From: Candidatus Dojkabacteria bacterium UBA2259
Lineage (GTDB): Bacteria > Patescibacteriota > Dojkabacteria > SC72
Assembly: GCA_002347605.1 (NCBI GenBank)
Contig: DDXN01000001.1
Span: 9,701 to 73,700, forward strand
Length of the DNA stretch: 64,000 nucleotides
Direction of reading: 5' to 3'
The translations under genes and the position numbers were made by a program. The notes under the pieces are model-generated. The model did no database searches, had not been told where the DNA came from, and saw only the letters and a list, made by a program, of their open reading frames with translations. Of this stretch, positions 56,452-63,382 are shown piece after piece; within the stretch, counting starts at the first letter, position 1; every line of letters starts with the position of its first letter.

Positions 56452-56863
56452 GGGGACGTTAGGCTTTCGACAGAAGTATATAGGTGCTGTTGTCACAAAT
56501 CGTTTTTTAGTTCGTAAAACTAAAACACAGATAAGTGTAGAAAACAAACTTAACGCTTTTGCAAGTAAGCTAAGGGCTGCATTTATTGCACCTTCTTATG
56601 CTTACAATTTTGCATAAGTTTGATCAATTAATTTTGGTCAATGTCTACCTTTCTTATCCCTAGTTAGGGGAGATAGACAGTCGTTACTAGGGTATAGTAT
56701 GTATTCTTTGTCAGTAGAGGATCCATAGTGAATATAATTACTGAGTAGGTTATACTTTTTGTTAGATTTTTTAGTGTAATCTAGCTATATAAATCTAAAT
56801 ATATTTGTAAATGACATTGTACTTAGCTTTTGGACGTGGGTTCAAATCCCACCGTCTCCACCA
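56452..56863 (+). ncRNA. ssrA: tmRNA (ssrA)
   Basis: 5' GGGGACGUUAGGCUUUCGACAG... and 3' ...GGACGUGGGUUCAAAUCCCACCGUCUCCACCA closely resemble Bacillus-type tmRNA ends (from memory). The acceptor 5' GGGGACG pairs with 3' CGUCUCC, including the G3:U70 alanine identity pair. A T-arm and encoded CCA are present. The tag ORF is not assigned with confidence. Confidence 0.75.
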
Positions 56864-58412
56864 TATCAGGTTCGTTATTGGTAATTGCTTCAAAAAGGGT
56901 TATTGGAAGAGAATAGTTAGGGGTTCGATAACCCTCTATTTTGTCATACTCTAAATTCGTATCAAAGATAAAAGAAAAGAACTTCTGTTTTTGATATACA
57001 TCGTAGTTTTCCCATACAGTATAAGGTTTCTGTAAAACCTCAAGAACTTCTTTAGAAGAGGTTCGATAAGGAATAGAGTAATCAACATCTGTCTTTATTC
57101 TGTTTTCCAGTATCTCTACCTCTTCTCCATATTTCTGAATTTGTTTTTCGTATTGTTTTAACACGGTTGAATTAGTGGTTCTAATTGCGAAAGAGGCGTA
57201 TTTCTCTATTTCGTGTTCTATTTTCTCCTTGTTTCCTATGTCTTCTTCTCTTGCGTTTTGGAGGTTACCTATCTCTATCTTCCAAGCATCTTCAAAGATA
57301 GCAAGGGATAGGTTTATTAGGTCCTCTGACGCCCTGATTTGACCTAGAAGGGCACTAAAACCTGCATGTATGTCTTCTGCCCTAATGCTTTTCCCATACA
57401 TCTCACACTCCTTGTTGGCACATTTGTAATAAGGGTGTAGTTTCCCTGTTTTACTTCTAGAAGATGCACCTGTCAGTTTCTTCCCGCAACAAGCACAGTT
57501 AATTAATCCTCTGAGGAAAAAATCCTCTCTTATATCTTTTCTTACAAAGGAAGGTGTTTTACCTTCTAAGATTTTCTGATTTCTTTCAAAGGTCTTAATA
57601 TCTATAATACCCTTATGATGTCCCTCCCTTCTAATTACTTCCCATTTTGGAAACTCTATATAACCTGCATAAAAGGGGTTCTTAAGAAGGTTTGTAAAGG
57701 TTACAATCCCTTTGTTGGCGTGTTGGTTGTTGCTTATAACACCTTTCTTTTGGAGATATCTTACAGCATCAATTTTATTTTCGAATCTTCTATTAGCAAA
57801 ACCCTCTAACGCCCCTTTAATAAACTCTGCATTCCTTGTAGGGATATCTATAGTCCCATGTATAGGGTCTTTTATTTTCTTGTATCCTAGAGGCGCACAG
57901 AACGCCCAATAACCGTTTCTAAGTCGTGCTTGTTGTTTCTGTATCACTTGTCTTTGGTTTTGTTGTCTTTCTAGTTGATTATGTGCCGCCTGCAATGTCT
58001 CAAAGTAGATTCCCTCAGGAGTATCATCAAAATCGTAATTCAAACACAATAGAATAACATCTCTAATTTTTAAGGCACTTCGTAATTTAATATGACCTTC
58101 GGTATCTCTTGCAAACCTCTTAAGGTCATCAAATACAACAACAAAACTTTTATGCGGATTTTTATCTATATACTCTAGCATCTCTCTCATTGCGGGTCTT
58201 TTCATAAAATCTCCTCCCCCTGTAAAACTGTCAAAGAAACTCCTTTCATAAGGGATGTTTTCTTCTCTTAATTTGGATAAGCACCTTTCTTCTTGACTCT
58301 CTAATCCATGTCCTTCCGTTCTCTGTTTTCTTGCAGATACCCTTGCATATATTAATCCAACTTTGTTTTTATAAAGGTTGTTATTGCGAAACGAACCCAT
58401 TTCACTATCCAT
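56823..58412 (-). CDS. Large serine recombinase (phage-type integrase)
   Basis: N-terminal resolvase catalytic domain GLIYARVSARKQRTEGHGLESQEE with the catalytic Ser in YARVS. Also a recombinase domain, a zinc ribbon CACCGKKL...YYKCANKEC and a C-terminal coiled-coil. The last ~13 codons overlap the ssrA 3' end. Confidence 0.85.
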   Translation of the reverse strand: MDSEMGSFRNNNLYKNKVGLIYARVSARKQRTEGHGLESQEERCLSKLREENIPYERSFFDSFTGGGDFMKRPAMREMLEYIDKNPHKSFVVVFDDLKRFARDTEGHIKLRSALKIRDVILLCLNYDFDDTPEGIYFETLQAAHNQLERQQNQRQVIQKQQARLRNGYWAFCAPLGYKKIKDPIHGTIDIPTRNAEFIKGALEGFANRRFENKIDAVRYLQKKGVISNNQHANKGIVTFTNLLKNPFYAGYIEFPKWEVIRREGHHKGIIDIKTFERNQKILEGKTPSFVRKDIREDFFLRGLINCACCGKKLTGASSRSKTGKLHPYYKCANKECEMYGKSIRAEDIHAGFSALLGQIRASEDLINLSLAIFEDAWKIEIGNLQNAREEDIGNKEKIEHEIEKYASFAIRTTNSTVLKQYEKQIQKYGEEVEILENRIKTDVDYSIPYRTSSKEVLEVLQKPYTVWENYDVYQKQKFFSFIFDTNLEYDKIEGYRTPNYSLPITLFEAITNNEPDMVETVGFEPTSKS

Positions 58413-58887
58413 TTCTTTTTAATTCTAAGAGTTTATTTATTGCTTTATACATGCGATTCTCTATCGAGGTCTCATATCTTGCATAATAAGAGGATAAATA
58501 CTCCATGTGAGATGTTGTAACTACTGGTTTATAACCGTCCCTTTCTTTAAAAGTATCTAAATCAAGTAGTTTTGATACTATTGTTGGGTCGATGGCGGTC
58601 TTCATTAGTTCTGCTTCTGCTTTTGCAACTCTTAAAAGTTTTATATAGGCAACTGAGATTCTTTCTATCAAAATCTCTTCTAGAGTGTTTTTAGGTGGGA
58701 AATCTTGAGATAGTGAATTATAAAAATTAAGGAAATCAAACTCCTCATACTCAGATACACTTTTTTTTAAGATACCATGCTTAACTGCATTGAATCTTGA
58801 TACCTCTTTTCCTTCTTCGGTTTTGACTCCTCCCAATTTACTGTTTTCCCTGTTCGCCTCTAACTGTTTTTCTGTTATGTTCTTCAT
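58405..58887 (-). CDS. Hypothetical protein (island cargo)
   Basis: 160-aa ORF overlapping the recombinase start by 8 nt. No motif. Confidence 0.4.
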   Translation of the reverse strand: MKNITEKQLEANRENSKLGGVKTEEGKEVSRFNAVKHGILKKSVSEYEEFDFLNFYNSLSQDFPPKNTLEEILIERISVAYIKLLRVAKAEAELMKTAIDPTIVSKLLDLDTFKERDGYKPVVTTSHMEYLSSYYARYETSIENRMYKAINKLLELKRNG

Positions 58888-59053
58888 AAATCTTAATGTT
58901 TTTATTTATTATCTCTTTTGCTAAGGAATATATGTAATATCTGATTTTTTCAATGTCATCATTGCTTATATCCCTAGTGGGAAGGTATTCCCGACATTTT
59001 TCTACACTTAACATTTTATGTAATGGATAATCTGGTTCTAGGGTTTCTAGCAA
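58838..59053 (-). CDS. Hypothetical small protein
   Basis: 71-aa ORF. Weak support. Confidence 0.25.
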   Translation of the reverse strand: MLETLEPDYPLHKMLSVEKCREYLPTRDISNDDIEKIRYYIYSLAKEIINKNIKIYEEHNRKTVRGEQGKQ

Positions 59054-59092
59054 CTCAGATTAATAAGTAAGGGTTTCGATTTGTTCGACAAC

Positions 59093-59902
59093 CTATTTCT
59101 TATCAATGCGTTCTAAAAGAACAACCTTGCCGTTTTCTTGCTTAATTAATAGTTCCTTTCTTCCCTCTTCCTTGAGTGCTTTAGATATATACTCTTGGAC
59201 ATTCTTAGGATTTTGAGTTTTCTTAACATAATCAATTCTGTTAATCTTTTTATCTTGCACGGATATTCTAACCTCTCCTAAATTCTCTTCTGTCATTATA
59301 GAAAAGAGTAAATCAGTTTCCTTCTCGTTTGGACTTATTACTAAGTTTGTATTGTAACTAAGTTCTGGTTTTTTAACACTTCTCGAGAATATATCATTTA
59401 ATCTTATTACGATATGAGGGGAGGGAAGGGGACTAATTAATTGGGAATTTATATATTCTGTATCCAAGCAAAGGTCTGCCTCTCCTTTGGGAGTAATGAC
59501 CAGAAGGACATTGTCTTTAATAAACATTCTTCCAATAAACAATTCAAAGTAGAGGGTGTCCTCCTTTCCATCTTCTCTTCTATGGAAAATACATTTTTTG
59601 ATATTGTTAATCTTATCAAGGGGGAACCCGATTTTTCTTAGATCTCCTACAACACCTATCCAGAGAATATCAATTAAACTGAATTTCCTCCAACCAGAGT
59701 TTCTTCCTTTCTGTTTTAGTAATATATTTTTCTCTTCCCAATGATTGATGATTCTGTAACTTTGAGATGTAGAGGACATAGACACTTTTCTTTTTCTAAT
59801 AATCTCTCTTACGGGAGAAAACTTTTCACCTTGATAATCCCCTAACCAGAAGTCAAACCAATCGCTGTGATGTATTGTAAAAGGTAAGATGTTTATTCCC
59901 AT
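59093..59902 (-). CDS. MerR-family-like HTH protein (candidate element regulator / recombination directionality factor)
   Basis: The segment ILLKQKGRNSGWRKFSLIDILWIGVVGDLRKIGFPLDKI fits the MerR wing/helix pattern (ESGYRLYS..DL..L..I..LR..GFSL.EI). The remaining ~180 aa are unassigned. Confidence 0.45.
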   Translation of the reverse strand: MGINILPFTIHHSDWFDFWLGDYQGEKFSPVREIIRKRKVSMSSTSQSYRIINHWEEKNILLKQKGRNSGWRKFSLIDILWIGVVGDLRKIGFPLDKINNIKKCIFHRREDGKEDTLYFELFIGRMFIKDNVLLVITPKGEADLCLDTEYINSQLISPLPSPHIVIRLNDIFSRSVKKPELSYNTNLVISPNEKETDLLFSIMTEENLGEVRISVQDKKINRIDYVKKTQNPKNVQEYISKALKEEGRKELLIKQENGKVVLLERIDKK

Positions 59903-60004
59903 ATATAAATTATACGCCAGTGTATAATTTAGTCAAGGGGATTGTTTAATACCCATCTTTGGTTATTCAAGCGATGTGGGATATAATAAATAACAAAAAG
60001 ATAT

Positions 60005-62131
60005 ATGGACTCCACTTACAATAACAAAAAATTGACTTTATCAGAGATGCAGCAAATTGCAAAAGAAAGAGGAGGGGAGTGTCTGTCAGAAGAGTATGTA
60101 AATGTTATAACCCCATTAGAGTGGAAGTGTTCAGAAGGGCACAAATGGAAATCAACGCCACATAATATTAAAAGAGGAAGATGGTGTCCTGTTTGCGGTA
60201 GATACAAGAAAAGAAAGTATAAAACCAAATACTCTATTGTTGATATGAGGGAAATTGCAGAAGAAAGAGGAGGAAAGTGCTTATCTAAAGAATTTCTTAA
60301 TAGTAACACGCATTTAGTATGGGAGTGTAAGAGGGGTCATCGATGGAACGCCCGTCCAACACAAGTAATTAGTGGTTCATGGTGTCCCTTTTGTGTGTAT
60401 GAGGATAGGAAAAGAACCATAGAAGAAATGCAGCAAATTGCAAAAGAGAGAGGAGGGAAGTGCTTATCTACAGAGTATATAAACATTGATACAAAATTAC
60501 TTTGGGAGTGTTCGAAGGGTCATAAATGGGAAGCAATACCCTACAATATTGTTTCTGGGAGAAATTGGTGTCCTGTTTGTAGGAAAAAATATATTGCTAC
60601 TGATAATCCTTCGGGCTACACAATAAAAGACATGCAGAACATTGCTACTCAGAAAGGTGGAAAGTGTTTGTCAAAGAAATATCTGGGAAGTCATTATAAA
60701 TTGACATGGAGATGCAAAGTAGGTCACGAATGGGAATCTCGTCCAACAACTATACTTAGTGGTGGGTGGTGTCCTATATGTTCAATAGAGAAGAGGGCGA
60801 ATTCCTCAAGAAAGTATTCAATAAAAGATTTTAAAATAATTGCTGAAGAGAGGCATGGGGAATGTTTATCAACAGAGTTTACAAACAGTGATTTAAAATT
60901 AAGGTGGAGATGTAACAAAGGGCACGAATGGGAAGCAAGTGGGCGGGCAATTATTAACGGACAATGGTGTCCAATGTGTAGAACATATAGGAGAGAAGAG
61001 ATTTGCCGTAATATTATTGAGTATTATTTTGAAAAGCAATTCCCTAAGAAAAGACCTAAATGGCTAATCAATTCCAAAGGAAATATTATGGAATTGGATG
61101 GATACAACGAAGAGTTAGGGGTAGCATTTGAACACCAAGGACTTCAGCACTATGAGGAAACAGAATTTTTCAATAGGGAGAAAGATTTAGCAACTCAGAA
61201 AAAACTTGATAGGGAAAAACGGGAAAAATGCTTGGAGAAGGAGGTCTTTTTATTAGAAATCCCTTATTTAATACCTGTTGAAGAGTTGGAGAAATACATC
61301 TTGAATCTTTGTGACGAGAATTCTCTTGCAAGAAAAATAAAGAGGGAAATGACAAGGGATGAGATTTTAAATGTTTATAGTCCTAAGGAGACGGAAGAAC
61401 TAAGGGAGATAGCAAAGATGAGAGGTGGGAAACTGTTGTCTAAGGTTTATGTCACTGCCACGATACCCCTTGTCTGGAGGTGCAGCAAGGGGCACGAATG
61501 GAAGGCAAATCCCCACATGGTGAGAAGAGGAACCTGGTGCCCTATATGTGGCAATGATGTCCGTAGGGGCAACATAGAGGAGTGTATACAGTTAGCGAGG
61601 AAAATGGGTGGGGAATGTCTGTCTACAGAATATTTGAATAGTTACAAAAAGATGAAATGGAAGTGCAAAGAAGGTCATATTTGGTTTGCATCTTTTGGTC
61701 AATTGAAAAATGAAAACACATGGTGTTCAATATGCAGTAATAAAAAGAGGAGACTTGGCTTAGAGAGGATGAAAGAACTTGCGAGAGAACGGGGGGGAGA
61801 GTGTTTATCAACAGAATATTTTGGGATTGGGGAGAAATTAAAGTGGAGATGCAAATATGGTCACGAGTGGAATGTTGCACCAAAACATATTGTGGCAGAT
61901 GACTCATGGTGTCCTGTATGTGCCAGAGAGGGGAGGAAAAAAACAATAGAAGAGATGCAACAAATTGCAAAAGATAGGGGAGGAAAGTGTTTATCAAAAA
62001 AGTATGTAGGCGTAAATGCACATTTACTTTGGAAATGTAAACAAGGTCATAAGTGGAAAGCAACACCAAGCAATGTTTTGCGAGGAACGTGGTGTCCTGC
62101 ATGTGCTTTGACGCAACGGAAGAGGGGATAA
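60005..62131 (+). CDS. Multi-zinc-ribbon repeat protein (9 x ~62-aa GHxW...WCPxC modules) with a central Vsr/DUF559-like putative endonuclease domain
   Basis: Nine repeats of the form [ST]IEEMQQIAKERGGKCLSxEYxNxxxKLxWxCxxGHxWxAxPxxIxxGxWCPVC; five lie N-terminal and four C-terminal to the core. The central ~130-aa region ...IMELDGYNEELGVAFEHQGLQHY...DREKREKCLEKEVFLLEIPY resembles the DUF559/very-short-patch-repair-like PD-(D/E)xK pattern (vDG..H...D..R..L...G..VlR). The repeat resembles the GHEW/CP probable zinc-ribbon family (recalled as DUF4379). Confidence 0.6.
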   Translation: MDSTYNNKKLTLSEMQQIAKERGGECLSEEYVNVITPLEWKCSEGHKWKSTPHNIKRGRWCPVCGRYKKRKYKTKYSIVDMREIAEERGGKCLSKEFLNSNTHLVWECKRGHRWNARPTQVISGSWCPFCVYEDRKRTIEEMQQIAKERGGKCLSTEYINIDTKLLWECSKGHKWEAIPYNIVSGRNWCPVCRKKYIATDNPSGYTIKDMQNIATQKGGKCLSKKYLGSHYKLTWRCKVGHEWESRPTTILSGGWCPICSIEKRANSSRKYSIKDFKIIAEERHGECLSTEFTNSDLKLRWRCNKGHEWEASGRAIINGQWCPMCRTYRREEICRNIIEYYFEKQFPKKRPKWLINSKGNIMELDGYNEELGVAFEHQGLQHYEETEFFNREKDLATQKKLDREKREKCLEKEVFLLEIPYLIPVEELEKYILNLCDENSLARKIKREMTRDEILNVYSPKETEELREIAKMRGGKLLSKVYVTATIPLVWRCSKGHEWKANPHMVRRGTWCPICGNDVRRGNIEECIQLARKMGGECLSTEYLNSYKKMKWKCKEGHIWFASFGQLKNENTWCSICSNKKRRLGLERMKELARERGGECLSTEYFGIGEKLKWRCKYGHEWNVAPKHIVADDSWCPVCAREGRKKTIEEMQQIAKDRGGKCLSKKYVGVNAHLLWKCKQGHKWKATPSNVLRGTWCPACALTQRKRG
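60029..62120. repeat. Intragenic DNA repeats encoding the zinc-ribbon modules
   Basis: For example, agagatgcagcaaattgcaaaagaaagaggagg at about 60043, agaaatgcagcaaattgcaaaagagagaggagg at about 60424, and agagatgcaacaaattgcaaaagatagggg at about 61950. Confidence 0.55.
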
Positions 62132-62210
62132 TTAAACCATCTTTATCCTAAAAGAAATATGTAACCGAGATTTTGAGAACTTTAATTTCTCAAGGTATCT
62201 TTATATAATC

Positions 62211-62924
62211 GTGGTAATGCAAGGAAAGAAGTTTAAAGTTAAAAGCGAAAGCGGTGATATTCAAGAAATTCTGAGTTTTGTCCTTGTTATTTTTAATGAA
62301 GTTTTACCAATTGCTGGGGAAGAAGAGTGTATTGTATTTAATGATTCCAGTGCAGAATGTCCTATGCTTATTACTAACAAGAAATCCTTAGAAATCAGAT
62401 TAAACGTAGAGGAAGAATCTAAGTGGAACCAAGTTATCTATCAAATGTCTCACGAAATAATGCATTATGCTCTACGGCAGAAAAGAGAAAAGAAGGGTGA
62501 GATATTGAGTTGGTTTGAGGAAACTCTTTGTGAAGCATTTTCTTTATATACTATGTCGATTGCAATGACAAAGTGGAAGATTTGTAGTTTCTATAAATTG
62601 AATAAGAACTATTATAAGTATATTGGAAGTTACTTTAATAAAGAGTTGAATAAAAAGGGTGACAAAATATCAGAATGTGTTACCCTTGATTGTTTAAGAG
62701 AGATAGATAAAGAAGCAGAAACCCATCGAGAATGGAGATACGACATTAGAAATGCGGTTTTTGAATTGTTTAAGGTGTATCCGAAGGGTATTGCAGAGAT
62801 TCTTGACTATTCAGAATACGTTGAAGAAGATATGTTAACGATCAACTTTTATAAGTGGGAGCAAAATAGCAGGTTCCCTCAATTTATAAAAAAACTAGCA
62901 CTAATACAACCAGAGGTTTGTTAA
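62211..62924 (+). CDS. Hypothetical protein with HExxH motif (possible zinc metallopeptidase, ImmA/IrrE-like?)
   Basis: MSHEIMHYAL contains HEIMH. No other motif is confirmed. Confidence 0.35.
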   Translation: MVMQGKKFKVKSESGDIQEILSFVLVIFNEVLPIAGEEECIVFNDSSAECPMLITNKKSLEIRLNVEEESKWNQVIYQMSHEIMHYALRQKREKKGEILSWFEETLCEAFSLYTMSIAMTKWKICSFYKLNKNYYKYIGSYFNKELNKKGDKISECVTLDCLREIDKEAETHREWRYDIRNAVFELFKVYPKGIAEILDYSEYVEEDMLTINFYKWEQNSRFPQFIKKLALIQPEVC

Positions 62925-62935
62925 TAATTACATAT

Positions 62936-63382
62936 TCAATTTCTCTGTCCTGGTTTCTTTTTCTCTTGGTTCTTCAAATTTTCCCATTTCTTTTGTTCCT
63001 CCAGTTCCAAGACAGGATCTATATACTCTTTCCCTAATAATTTCTTAATTCTTCTGTGAATTTCATCTATCTGAGTCCATAATCTTTGAACCTCGTTTAC
63101 ATGTCTCTCATATTCTTCATTGTCCGATACGTCCATAAGTTCACGTTCATAAACATTTTGACTCAATGCCTTAATGTATTCCTTCCAATCGTTAATAATT
63201 TCTGGAATTTTTGAATTATCAAATTTGTATCTCTCATAAAGTCGAGTAAAATTTTTACTACCACAGTCAAAGAATACTCTTGGATCAGTAAGGTGCTGTT
63301 TGAGATGGGAATTGTTAATCTGATTTAAAAGTTCAAATTCCATCTCTCTCACAGCATCATATTCATTGGAATAGTTATTCAT
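62936..63382 (-). CDS. Hypothetical protein
   Basis: 148-aa charged, helical ORF. No motif. Confidence 0.4.
   Translation of the reverse strand: MNNYSNEYDAVREMEFELLNQINNSHLKQHLTDPRVFFDCGSKNFTRLYERYKFDNSKIPEIINDWKEYIKALSQNVYERELMDVSDNEEYERHVNEVQRLWTQIDEIHRRIKKLLGKEYIDPVLELEEQKKWENLKNQEKKKPGQRN

What the first reader, a model, noticed from the sequence alone, without database searches (positions are those of the whole stretch)
60005..62131. 708-aa protein built from nine GHxW/WCPxC zinc-ribbon modules flanking a Vsr/DUF559-like putative nuclease core
Nine near-identical ~62-aa modules surround a central domain with an ELDG...H...D..R..L...G..V pattern like very-short-patch-repair / DUF559 PD-(D/E)xK endonucleases. 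Each module has two absolutely conserved Cys pairs, C-L-S then W-x-C, and GH-x-W then WCP-x-C. Nine zinc ribbons are consistent with a multivalent nucleic-acid or protein recognition array. Located on the putative island, this is a plausible homing-nuclease-like, defense or anti-defense effector of a kind not functionally characterised. The repeats are also near-identical at the DNA level, which implies recent expansion or ongoing recombination.
Basis: partly seen in the sequence, partly recalled or inferred. Interest (0 to 1): 0.75.

Follow-up and report, generated by a model that had tools for sequence, protein, structure and literature searches.

The report
Zinc-finger-array Vsr-like homing-type endonuclease
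This gene encodes a DNA-cutting enzyme whose Vsr-like nuclease core sits between nine small zinc-finger DNA-binding modules; it belongs to a very large, widely scattered and recently recognised family of homing-endonuclease-like selfish genes, so it is real but not a new kind of system.

Summary

Three details are wrong. The modules are only 34-63% identical in protein and 60-75% in DNA, with no tandem repeat found. The C-L-S cysteine is absent from module 6 and is probably not a zinc ligand; the likely ligands are C-x3-H...C-x2-C. The kind is also already described: a 2025 NAR paper reports CapR/DUF4379-like domains plus an EDxHD/Vsr-like nuclease as a large homing-endonuclease outgroup.

The core family has about 31,000 clusters at 50% identity across bacteria, archaea and phages. 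In 72 of 77 genomic relatives, modules flank the core on both sides. No neighbouring gene is conserved. Here the gene rides on a serine-recombinase island in the tmRNA gene of a Candidatus Dojkabacteria genome and is under purifying selection (dN/dS 0.11).

Verdict: a new member of a known kind, of modest interest.

The parts
60005..62131 (+). CDS of the 708-aa zinc-finger-array / Vsr-like nuclease protein
   Evidence: ORF list. An identical protein P0001 occurs on 13 metagenomic or genomic contigs. dN/dS is 0.11 against the 80%-identical orthologue P0002.
60029..60205 (+). Module 1 (DUF4379/CapR-like zinc finger; predicted ligands C42, H46, C61, C64)
   Evidence: Module-HMM domain hit, E 4.5e-32; ligand positions.
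60227..60403 (+). Module 2 (C108, H112, C127, C130)
60410..60589 (+). Module 3 (C169, H173, C189, C192). This module was modelled by AlphaFold2.
60617..60790 (+). Module 4 (C237, H241, C256, C259)
60812..60988 (+). Module 5 (C303, H307, C322, C325). Its last ligand is the first residue of the core alignment.
60977..61417 (+). Central Vsr/EDxHD-like nuclease core (residues 325-471). Invariant residues and their codons are E331 (60995), D365 (61097), E376 (61130), H382 (61148) and D402 (61208). Q378 (61136) occupies the 'x' position.
61385..61558 (+). Module 6 (C493, H497, C512, C515). It lacks the 'C-L-S' cysteine and reads K-L-L-S.
61568..61744 (+). Module 7 (C554, H558, C574, C577). It has WCSIC instead of WCPxC.
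61754..61930 (+). Module 8 (C616, H620, C636, C639)
61937..62113 (+). Module 9 (C678, H682, C697, C700). It is the closest paralogue of modules 1 and 3 (59-60% aa; 75% nt to module 3).
56452..56863 (+). tmRNA gene, the integration site of the island that carries the nuclease gene
   Evidence: ARAGORN. The same arrangement is seen in L001 and L003, and in degraded form in L007.
56823..58412 (-). Large serine recombinase (Resolvase + Recombinase + Zn_ribbon_recom). Its 3' end overlaps the last 41 nt of the tmRNA gene.
59093..59902 (-). MerR-type HTH protein of 269 aa, transcribed divergently from the nuclease gene; possibly an island regulator or excision factor
   Evidence: Pfam MerR_1, E 3.8e-6. 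It is deleted together with the recombinase in L007.
62211..62924 (+). 237-aa ORF directly downstream (HEIMH motif, no family hit). It is the only neighbour retained with the nuclease gene in the related locus L007.

Best explanation
The gene encodes a stand-alone, sequence-specific DNA endonuclease of the homing-endonuclease type.

The catalytic centre is a Vsr/EDxHD-fold domain at residues 325-471. By analogy with Vsr and I-Bth0305I:
- D365 and D402, probably with E376 and E331, would hold the catalytic Mg2+.
- H382 would act as the general base.

The core is flanked by five N-terminal and four C-terminal CapR-like/DUF4379 zinc fingers, each probably binding one Zn through C-x3-H...C-x2-C. 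These fingers would lie along the DNA on both sides of the cut and jointly read a long target site. Each finger has its own set of surface residues.

The gene has no conserved partner and is scattered patchily over bacteria, archaea and phages, often next to integrases. This is the pattern of a selfish gene that spreads by cutting sites that lack it, or that hitch-hikes on mobile elements. In this window it is cargo of a roughly 7-kb serine-recombinase island inserted in the 3' end of the tmRNA gene of a Candidatus Dojkabacteria genome.

Shown: the domain content, the fold similarity, the invariant residues, the distribution, the context and the purifying selection. Inferred: DNA as the substrate, the roles of individual residues, the zinc ligands, bipartite target reading, and homing as the biological role.
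For: Domain content and fold:
- Nine DUF4379 stretches and CapR homology.
- PHROG 559 (324 bits) and PHROG 681 match the whole protein. The core alone matches phrog_559, phrog_9084 'homing endonuclease' and phrog_7140 'intron encoded nuclease'.
- 417 phage records match, many annotated as homing endonuclease, including the Campylobacter phage Hef proteins.
- E331, D365, E376, H382 and D402 are invariant in 32 diverse homologues. Their order and their secondary-structure positions follow the EDxHD scheme E170/D196/N208/H213/D222 of I-Bth0305I (PMC3239194).
- hhalign aligns ELDGY..AFEHQG with ELDFY..AIECNG of CP81 Hef-9 (E 2e-5). PMC3239194 assigns the Hef class to the EDxHD family.

Literature:
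- PMC12350094 describes CapR/DUF4379/DUF723-like domains plus an EDxHD/Vsr-like nuclease as intron-borne homing endonucleases, with thousands of unannotated relatives.
- CapR-type fingers bind DNA in experiments, and mutating their cysteines impairs that activity. They are repeated in phage homing endonucleases.

Distribution and context:
- The core family has 31,463 clusters at E<=1e-3.
- There are 448 loci in species-representative genomes spanning CPR bacteria, DPANN, Asgard and many bacterial phyla.
- 72 of 77 have modules on both sides of the core.
- Among 108 immediate neighbours, the commonest family is Phage_integrase (5), then IS200 transposase (2); the rest are unrelated.
- Serine-recombinase or integrase islands carry homologues in a B. 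thuringiensis assembly, in the P0077 contig and in a Saccharibacteria MAG.

Selection:
- dN/dS is 0.11 in all three parts of the gene, and the gene is kept where the recombinase is deleted.
- At hypervariable module positions, orthologous modules are 65% identical but paralogous modules only 21%. Each module therefore has its own constrained identity.
Against: - No biochemical data exist for this protein or for any close relative.
- No target site, empty site or presence/absence polymorphism was identified, so homing itself is untested.
- Sequence HMMs do not place the core in Vsr or DUF559.
- Foldseek against the PDB gives no significant match (best E 0.6; Vsr TM 0.44).
- The link to Hef-9 has only 77% hhalign probability.
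- The gene persists under purifying selection at a fixed chromosomal locus in two lineages. That fits a host- or island-beneficial function at least as well as a purely selfish one.
- Some homologues lie in defence islands.
- A single Vsr-type active site nicks only one strand. A double-strand break would need dimerisation, which was not examined.
Confidence: 0.55

Rival explanations
1. It is a single-gene defence or inter-element competition nuclease. The island, or the host, would use the finger array to recognise the DNA of a phage or a rival mobile element and cut it, in the manner of a stand-alone restriction-like effector.
For: - The gene is kept intact under purifying selection after the island's recombinase was lost.
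- Homologues sit among McrA/EVE-HNH, NucS-like, SIR2-HEPN and HsdR genes in Priestia.
- Another homologue sits beside Mrr, HNH_repeat and cREC genes in Paenibacillus.
- CapR-domain proteins are used in phage-satellite and phage-CRISPR conflicts.
Against: - PADLOC has no match to the protein, the core or its neighbours.
- No partner is conserved: there is one DNA methylase among 108 neighbours and no recurring immunity gene.
- Many homologues lie between housekeeping genes.
- The closest annotated and studied relatives are phage and intron homing endonucleases.
Confidence: 0.2
2. It is a domesticated DNA-binding protein, a repressor or silencer like PLE CapR or the CasPR anti-CRISPRs. It would use the finger array to sit on DNA without cutting, and the nuclease fold would be only a scaffold.
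For: CapR and the CasPRs show that this finger type has repeatedly been recruited for transcriptional repression. Purifying selection acts on the finger arrays.
Against: - All five EDxHD-type residues are invariant across 32 diverse homologues.
- The core is as constrained as the fingers (dN/dS 0.106).
- The domesticated relatives described in the papers read (CapR and the CasPRs) carry the fingers without a nuclease domain.
Confidence: 0.08
3. It is an RNA-directed protein. The Vsr-like core would work like a RAP domain, and the DUF4379 fingers like those of trypanosome mitoribosome assembly factors, binding or processing structured RNA. The adjacent tmRNA would be one candidate.
Against: - These are fold-level similarities with low Z for the module (3.5-3.7).
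- The two best core hits are DNA enzymes.
- The bacterial and phage members of this finger family that have been tested bind DNA.
- Relatives are encoded in introns as homing endonucleases.
- There is no conserved linkage to any RNA gene across 75 loci.
Confidence: 0.07
4. It is a true very-short-patch-repair-type mismatch nicking enzyme that counteracts deamination at methylated cytosines.
For: The best structural match is E. coli Vsr.
Against: - There is no sequence-level Vsr or DUF559 membership.
- Only 1 of 108 neighbours is a C5 DNA methylase, whereas vsr is classically paired with dcm, as in the E. coli locus fetched.
- Nine DNA-binding fingers and a patchy, island-borne distribution are not features of a repair gene.
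Confidence: 0.03

Closest known systems
CapR-like/DUF4379/DUF723 + EDxHD/Vsr-like homing endonucleases of phage group I and II introns (NAR 2025, PMC12350094)
   Same: The same two building blocks are present: repeated ~60-aa CapR/DUF4379-type zinc fingers and a ~100-150-aa nuclease distantly related to EDxHD/Vsr. The authors note thousands of unannotated relatives, and this protein appears to be one of them.
   Different: The described examples have three to five fingers followed by a C-terminal nuclease and are encoded in introns. This protein has nine fingers split 5 + 4 around a central nuclease, and it is a free-standing gene on a chromosomal island. The split layout is the norm among cellular relatives: 72 of 77 loci.
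I-Bth0305I, prototype of the EDxHD homing endonuclease family (PDB 3R3P; PMC3239194)
   Different: Sequence identity is about 15% and sequence searches do not detect it. I-Bth0305I uses N-terminal helix-turn-helix NUMOD motifs rather than zinc fingers. The spacing from x to His is one residue shorter here.
Hef homing endonucleases of Campylobacter phages (e.g. CP81 hef-9)
   Same: These are multi-zinc-finger proteins with an internal Vsr-like nuclease. They are detectable from this protein by tblastn and by profile comparison (E 2e-5). They were assigned to the EDxHD family by PMC3239194. They occur in several copies per phage genome.
   Different: Identity is only about 24%. The Hef nuclease strand reads E-C-N-G-D-Y-W-H, whereas here it reads E-H-Q-G-L-Q-H. 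They are phage-borne.
E. coli Vsr mismatch endonuclease (PDB 1CW0) and DUF559 proteins (PDB 3HRL)
   Different: No sequence-level match was found. The zinc site inside the Vsr nuclease domain has no counterpart here. There is no mismatch-repair context.
PLE CapR, ICP1 T5orf172 homing endonucleases and CasPR anti-CRISPRs
   Same: They use the same class of small zinc finger (Pfam CapR homology hit, E 2.2e-14). It serves as a portable and often repeated DNA-binding unit.
   Different: In those proteins the fingers are paired with a GIY-YIG-like T5orf172 nuclease, with AP2/HTH domains, or with nothing. The cysteine pattern is CxxC...CxC, whereas here it is C-x3-H...C-x2-C.

Membership tests
Pfam PF14311 DUF4379 (probable treble-clef zinc finger) / PF21817 CapR homology domain | Match to the family HMM above the curated cut-off | tested here: met
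   DUF4379 scores 147.9 bits against a cut-off of 24.5, with nine stretches. CapR scores 53.8 bits against 24.2, with five stretches.
Pfam PF14311 DUF4379 / CapR | Four zinc ligands arranged as a knuckle plus a helix N-terminus (treble clef) | tested here: inconclusive
Pfam PF14311 DUF4379 / CapR | Sequence-specific DNA binding | not testable with these tools
   Shown experimentally only for PLE CapR and the CasPRs.
EDxHD / Vsr-like homing endonucleases (I-Bth0305I family) | Vsr-type restriction-endonuclease fold of the catalytic domain | tested here: met
EDxHD / Vsr-like homing endonucleases (I-Bth0305I family) | Composite motif E, D, x, H, D conserved in that order | tested here: met
   E331, D365, H382 and D402 are invariant, and Q378 (Q/H/N across homologues) occupies x. 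The order and secondary-structure positions agree with E170/D196/N208/H213/D222. The residue-by-residue structural superposition was inferred, not computed.
EDxHD / Vsr-like homing endonucleases (I-Bth0305I family) | Detectable sequence homology to family members | tested here: inconclusive
   No PDB sequence hit to 3R3P or Vsr, even with a profile. hhalign to Hef-9 gives probability 77%, E 2e-5. Hef-9 itself hits the Vsr-clan family MTES_1575 only below threshold. The core hits PHROG homing-endonuclease families at 1e-9 to 1e-12.
EDxHD / Vsr-like homing endonucleases (I-Bth0305I family) | Site-specific DNA cleavage and homing into sites that lack the gene | not testable with these tools
   No target or empty site was identified. 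The only indirect evidence is the patchy distribution and the variable contexts.
Pfam DUF559 (PF04480) / Vsr (PF03852) | Match to the family HMM | tested here: not met
   There is no Pfam hit to the core at E<=10 apart from an unrelated DUF3752 at 0.061. NCBIfam gives nothing relevant. hhalign against E. coli Vsr gives probability 0.3%.
Known anti-phage defence systems (PADLOC-DB 2.0) | Match of the protein or its neighbours to a defence-system model | tested here: not met
   No hits for the protein or the core. Neighbours give only weak chance-level hits.
HNH endonucleases (the annotation attached to phrog_559) | HNH / beta-beta-alpha-Me catalytic motif | tested here: not met
   There is no Pfam HNH hit. 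The core folds as an alpha/beta restriction-endonuclease-like domain. The PHROG label appears to be a misnomer for this family.

The most novel reading that the evidence does not exclude
The 7-16-finger arrays on both sides of the nuclease could form a natural modular DNA-reading code. Each CapR/DUF4379 finger would read a few base pairs through its hypervariable hairpin residues. These proteins would then be natural zinc-finger nucleases whose specificity is rewired by shuffling or mutating fingers. That would explain the roughly 31,000 diverged clusters and would offer a new programmable DNA-targeting scaffold. The finger-plus-methyltransferase fusion seen in one homologue (P0055) would fit a portable targeting array.
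Probability: 0.15. Interest if true: 0.75.

Novelty: new member of a known kind. Interest (0 to 1): 0.3.

Why it matters
The finding shows that a gene usually labelled 'zinc-ribbon domain-containing protein' belongs to a very large nuclease family: about 31,000 clusters at 50% identity, spread over CPR bacteria, DPANN and Asgard archaea, many bacterial phyla and phages. The family combines a Vsr/EDxHD-type active site with long arrays of CapR-like zinc fingers.

None of the cellular members has been studied biochemically. The layout with fingers on both sides of the nuclease, which is the norm in genomes, is not the one drawn in the literature.

If the fingers read DNA in a modular way, the family could be a source of long-target nickases or nucleases. 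For this window specifically, the result is mainly an annotation: the gene is cargo on a small tmRNA-integrated island in a reduced Dojkabacteria genome.

Tried and rejected
- Tandem Repeats Finder on 59000-63000 found nothing. The 'near-identical DNA repeats' idea was dropped.
- Pfam and NCBIfam on the isolated core gave no nuclease family.
- phmmer and profile searches of PDB sequences gave no hits for the whole protein or the core, and only chance-level hits for the module.
- hhalign of the core profile against E. coli Vsr found no relationship.
- PADLOC on the protein, the core and five neighbours gave no defence system.
- A search for a second copy of the tmRNA 3' end, as an attR-type direct repeat, found only the tmRNA itself and a tRNA-Ser in the 8 kb downstream. 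The far island boundary therefore stays undefined; serine recombinases need no long repeat.
- A search for the 237-aa downstream ORF and the other island genes next to homologues elsewhere found them only in the orthologous locus L007. No conserved partner exists.
- The Pfam BRCT, PTCB-BRCT and POPLD hits were rejected as artefacts of summing weak matches over nine repeats, since no or only one stretch passes on its own.
- The 'HNH endonuclease' label of phrog_559 was rejected because no HNH motif or fold is present.
- The promoter and terminator scan around the gene gave counts at or below the shuffled expectation.
Full report

The window has an ATG-to-stop ORF of 708 aa at 60005-62131 on the + strand. 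Motif searches find nine GHxW and nine WC[PS]xC motifs. An HMM built from the modules places nine domains at 60029-62113, and nowhere else in the 64-kb window. Pfam recognises nine stretches of PF14311 (DUF4379, 'probable treble clef zinc finger', E 9e-44) and five of PF21817 (CapR homology domain). Residues 325-471 are not repetitive. They separate five N-terminal modules from four C-terminal ones.

Three of its details are not:
- The modules are not near-identical. Pairwise protein identity is 34-63%, mean 45%.
- The DNA copies are 60-75% identical, and Tandem Repeats Finder reports no array. Nothing points to recent expansion.
- The 'C-L-S' cysteine is missing from module 6 (K-L-L-S), and module 7 has WCSIC.

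Over 1263 modules from 120 homologues, the C-L-S cysteine is 96% conserved and is replaced by Leu or Phe. The Cys of W-x-C, the His of G-H, and the two Cys of WCPxC are 99-100% conserved. I infer that the zinc ligands are C-x3-H...C-x2-C and that the C-L-S cysteine is a buried core residue.

**2. What is the core?**

Sequence HMMs give no answer. Pfam finds nothing relevant for the isolated core, NCBIfam finds nothing, and PDB sequence searches find nothing even with a profile.

PHROGs does recognise it:
- The whole protein scores 324 bits on phrog_559 and 283 bits on phrog_681. Both families cover fingers plus core.
- The core alone hits phrog_559, phrog_9084 ('homing endonuclease', E 2.4e-9) and phrog_7140 ('intron encoded nuclease').
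- The 'HNH' label on phrog_559 is not borne out. No HNH motif is present.

An alignment of 32 diverse cores has invariant E331, D365, G366, E376, G379, H382 and D402, and near-invariant Q381 and K405. An AlphaFold2 model built on that alignment is confident (pLDDT 87.9, pTM 0.79), with a helix-strand-strand-helix-strand core.

The I-Bth0305I paper defines the family motif as E170, D196, N208 (x), H213 and D222. These equal Vsr E25, D51, H64, H69 and D97. The paper also notes an extra conserved acidic residue two positions before x (PMC3239194). The invariant residues here follow the same order and sit in the equivalent secondary-structure elements:
- E331 on helix 1
- D365 before strand 1
- E376-x-Q378 on strand 2
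- H382 just after strand 2
- D402 on the long helix

A profile comparison aligns M-E-L-D-G-Y...A-F-E-H-Q-G with K-E-L-D-F-Y...A-I-E-C-N-G of Campylobacter phage CP81 Hef-9 (E 2e-5, probability 77%). PMC3239194 places Hef proteins in the EDxHD family. Hef-9's own nuclease region touches the Vsr-clan family MTES_1575 only below threshold.

The register differs, however. The Asp of E-L-D-G is the first catalytic Asp, and F-E-H-Q-G-x-Q-H is the counterpart of the DUF559 E-x-D-G-x-x-H strand.

**3. What are the modules?**

The literature gives the function of the bacterial and phage relatives:
- CapR of the Vibrio cholerae PLE satellite is a DNA-binding repressor derived from phage homing endonucleases, and its conserved cysteines are needed for activity (bioRxiv 10.1101/2020.11.28.402263).
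- CapR, DUF723 and related fingers are found, often repeated, in most T5orf172 homing endonucleases (bioRxiv 10.1101/2023.03.23.533998).
- CasPR anti-CRISPRs use CapR domains to bind cas genes (bioRxiv 10.64898/2026.02.23.707548).

**4. How common is this architecture, and where is it found?**

A search of 5.8 billion proteins returned 2955 hits from 8000 scored candidates. Of the best 120, 113 contain the same core, with 7-16 modules each and a mode of 10. They include proteins that NCBI names 'zinc-ribbon domain-containing protein' in the Bacillus cereus group, Priestia and Paenibacillus, and in archaea.

A profile of the core finds 31,463 clusters (50% identity) at E<=1e-3, and 9,941 at E<=1e-10. 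One strict peptide pattern finds 448 loci in species-representative genomes. These span Proteobacteria, Chloroflexota, Planctomycetota, Verrucomicrobiota, Bacteroidota, CPR groups, DPANN archaea, Methanosarcinales, Thermoplasmata and Asgard archaea. In 72 of 77 of these, modules lie on both sides of the core.

Among 108 immediate neighbours from 75 loci, the commonest Pfam family is Phage_integrase (5). Next come IS200 transposase (2) and further DUF4379 genes (2). The rest are unrelated housekeeping genes, and only one is a DNA methylase.

Individual contexts are mixed:
- a resolvase/integrase/ANT island in a B. thuringiensis assembly
- a defence island in Priestia
- a site next to Mrr and HNH_repeat genes in Paenibacillus
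- a large-serine-recombinase island with a MerR gene, for P0077
- a site between ThrRS and an acetyltransferase in an archaeon

This is a single-gene, horizontally scattered element without a fixed partner.

**5. The local context**

RpoB from the window is identical or near-identical to proteins named Candidatus Dojkabacteria. A tmRNA gene lies at 56452-56863. A large serine recombinase (56823-58412, minus strand; Resolvase + Recombinase + Zn_ribbon_recom) overlaps its last 41 nt. Next come a 160-aa ORF, a MerR-type 269-aa ORF, the nuclease gene, a 237-aa ORF and two small ORFs. After these, type IV pilus-like genes resume.

In a related contig (L007) the nuclease orthologue is 80% identical. 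There the same tmRNA is followed by only the last ~165 codons of the recombinase. Window 57320-59877 is missing, yet the nuclease gene and the 237-aa ORF are intact. dN/dS between the two nuclease genes is 0.11 overall, and it is similar in the N-terminal array, the core and the C-terminal array. The gene is therefore functional, and it was retained after the island lost its mobility gene.

At the positions that are hypervariable across the family, orthologous modules are 65% identical but different modules within the protein only 21%. This suggests that each module has its own constrained surface.

**6. Mechanism and rivals**

The best-supported model is a sequence-specific DNA endonuclease of the homing type. 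It would have a Vsr/EDxHD active site held over the DNA by two finger arrays that read the flanks of the cut. It would spread as a selfish gene or as cargo of mobile elements (confidence 0.55). DNA as substrate, the roles of individual residues, bipartite reading and homing are all inferences.

The main rival is a single-gene defence or competition nuclease (0.2). The purifying selection at a fixed locus and the defence-island contexts favour it. No PADLOC match or conserved partner supports it.

Three further rivals are less likely:
- A non-cutting repressor (0.08) is disfavoured by the invariant catalytic residues.
- An RNA-directed role (0.07) is suggested only by fold-level resemblance to RAP and mitoribosomal DUF4379 proteins.
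- True Vsr repair (0.03) lacks the methyltransferase linkage.

**7. Novelty**

A 2025 NAR paper on phage group II introns already reports homing endonucleases made of three to five CapR/DUF4379/DUF723-like domains plus a C-terminal EDxHD/Vsr-like nuclease. [quoted passage not shown] The present protein is one of these. It differs in having nine fingers split around a central nuclease, which is the usual layout of the cellular relatives.

I found no paper that characterises this subfamily. I file it as a new member of a known kind, with interest 0.3. The open question of interest is whether the finger arrays form a modular DNA-reading code.

Noticed in passing
window 56452-58412: The tmRNA gene has an unusually long predicted tag peptide (VENKLNAFASKLRAAFIAPSYAYNFA). 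Its last 41 nt are overlapped by the 3' end of a large serine recombinase gene on the opposite strand, so the island supplies the end of the tmRNA. No attR-like repeat of the tmRNA end was found within 8 kb downstream.
   Followed up: partly
window 59878-62940 versus L007 3118-6155: Nucleotide identity between the two orthologous nuclease genes falls from 85-95% in the 5' half to 71-75% in the 3' half. dS is 0.58 in the N-terminal array and about 3 in the C-terminal array. This may mean recombination inside the gene has made it a mosaic.
   Followed up: partly
window 62211-62924 (+): The 237-aa ORF directly downstream carries an H-E-I-M-H (HExxH-like) motif and has no Pfam or PADLOC family. 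It is the only neighbour kept together with the nuclease gene in L007 (72% identity). It is not found next to homologues elsewhere.
   Followed up: partly
L007 2625-3120: In the related contig, only a remnant of the serine recombinase (its last ~165 codons) survives next to the tmRNA. A glutamine synthetase gene is present downstream that this window lacks. The island is decaying differently in the two lineages.
   Followed up: partly
window 60005-62131 (Pfam table): BRCT (E 1.2e-9), PTCB-BRCT and POPLD appear as whole-protein hits, but no or only one stretch passes on its own. They look like artefacts of adding weak matches over nine repeats. The same families are listed for many homologues in the precomputed annotations.
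   Followed up: no
P0055: One 1131-aa homologue combines DUF4379/CapR modules with SAM-dependent methyltransferase domains. This suggests the finger array is a portable targeting unit that can be joined to other enzymes.
   Followed up: no
L095 and L096 (contig CAZWLZ010000001.1, 43,772 bp): The same nuclease gene, with identical match statistics, occurs within about 10 kb of both ends of one contig, in opposite orientation. This is either a long terminal inverted repeat of a linear or mobile element, or an assembly artefact.
   Followed up: no
L019 4111-7050: A Micrarchaeota contig carries two family members in tandem (501 and 465 aa), each with its own core and fingers. This recalls the multi-copy Hef genes of Campylobacter phages.
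   Followed up: no
L013 2861-6730: Next to the P0077 homologue lies a 1289-aa helicase fused to an MTES_1575/RAP-type (Vsr-clan) nuclease domain. Two different Vsr-like nucleases therefore sit on the same serine-recombinase island.
   Followed up: no
window 60001-62000: The gene stands out in composition: GC 0.385 against about 0.34 for the window, GC skew +0.35 and AT skew +0.20. This probably reflects its Lys/Glu/Arg/Gly/Trp-rich repeats rather than foreign origin.
   Followed up: no
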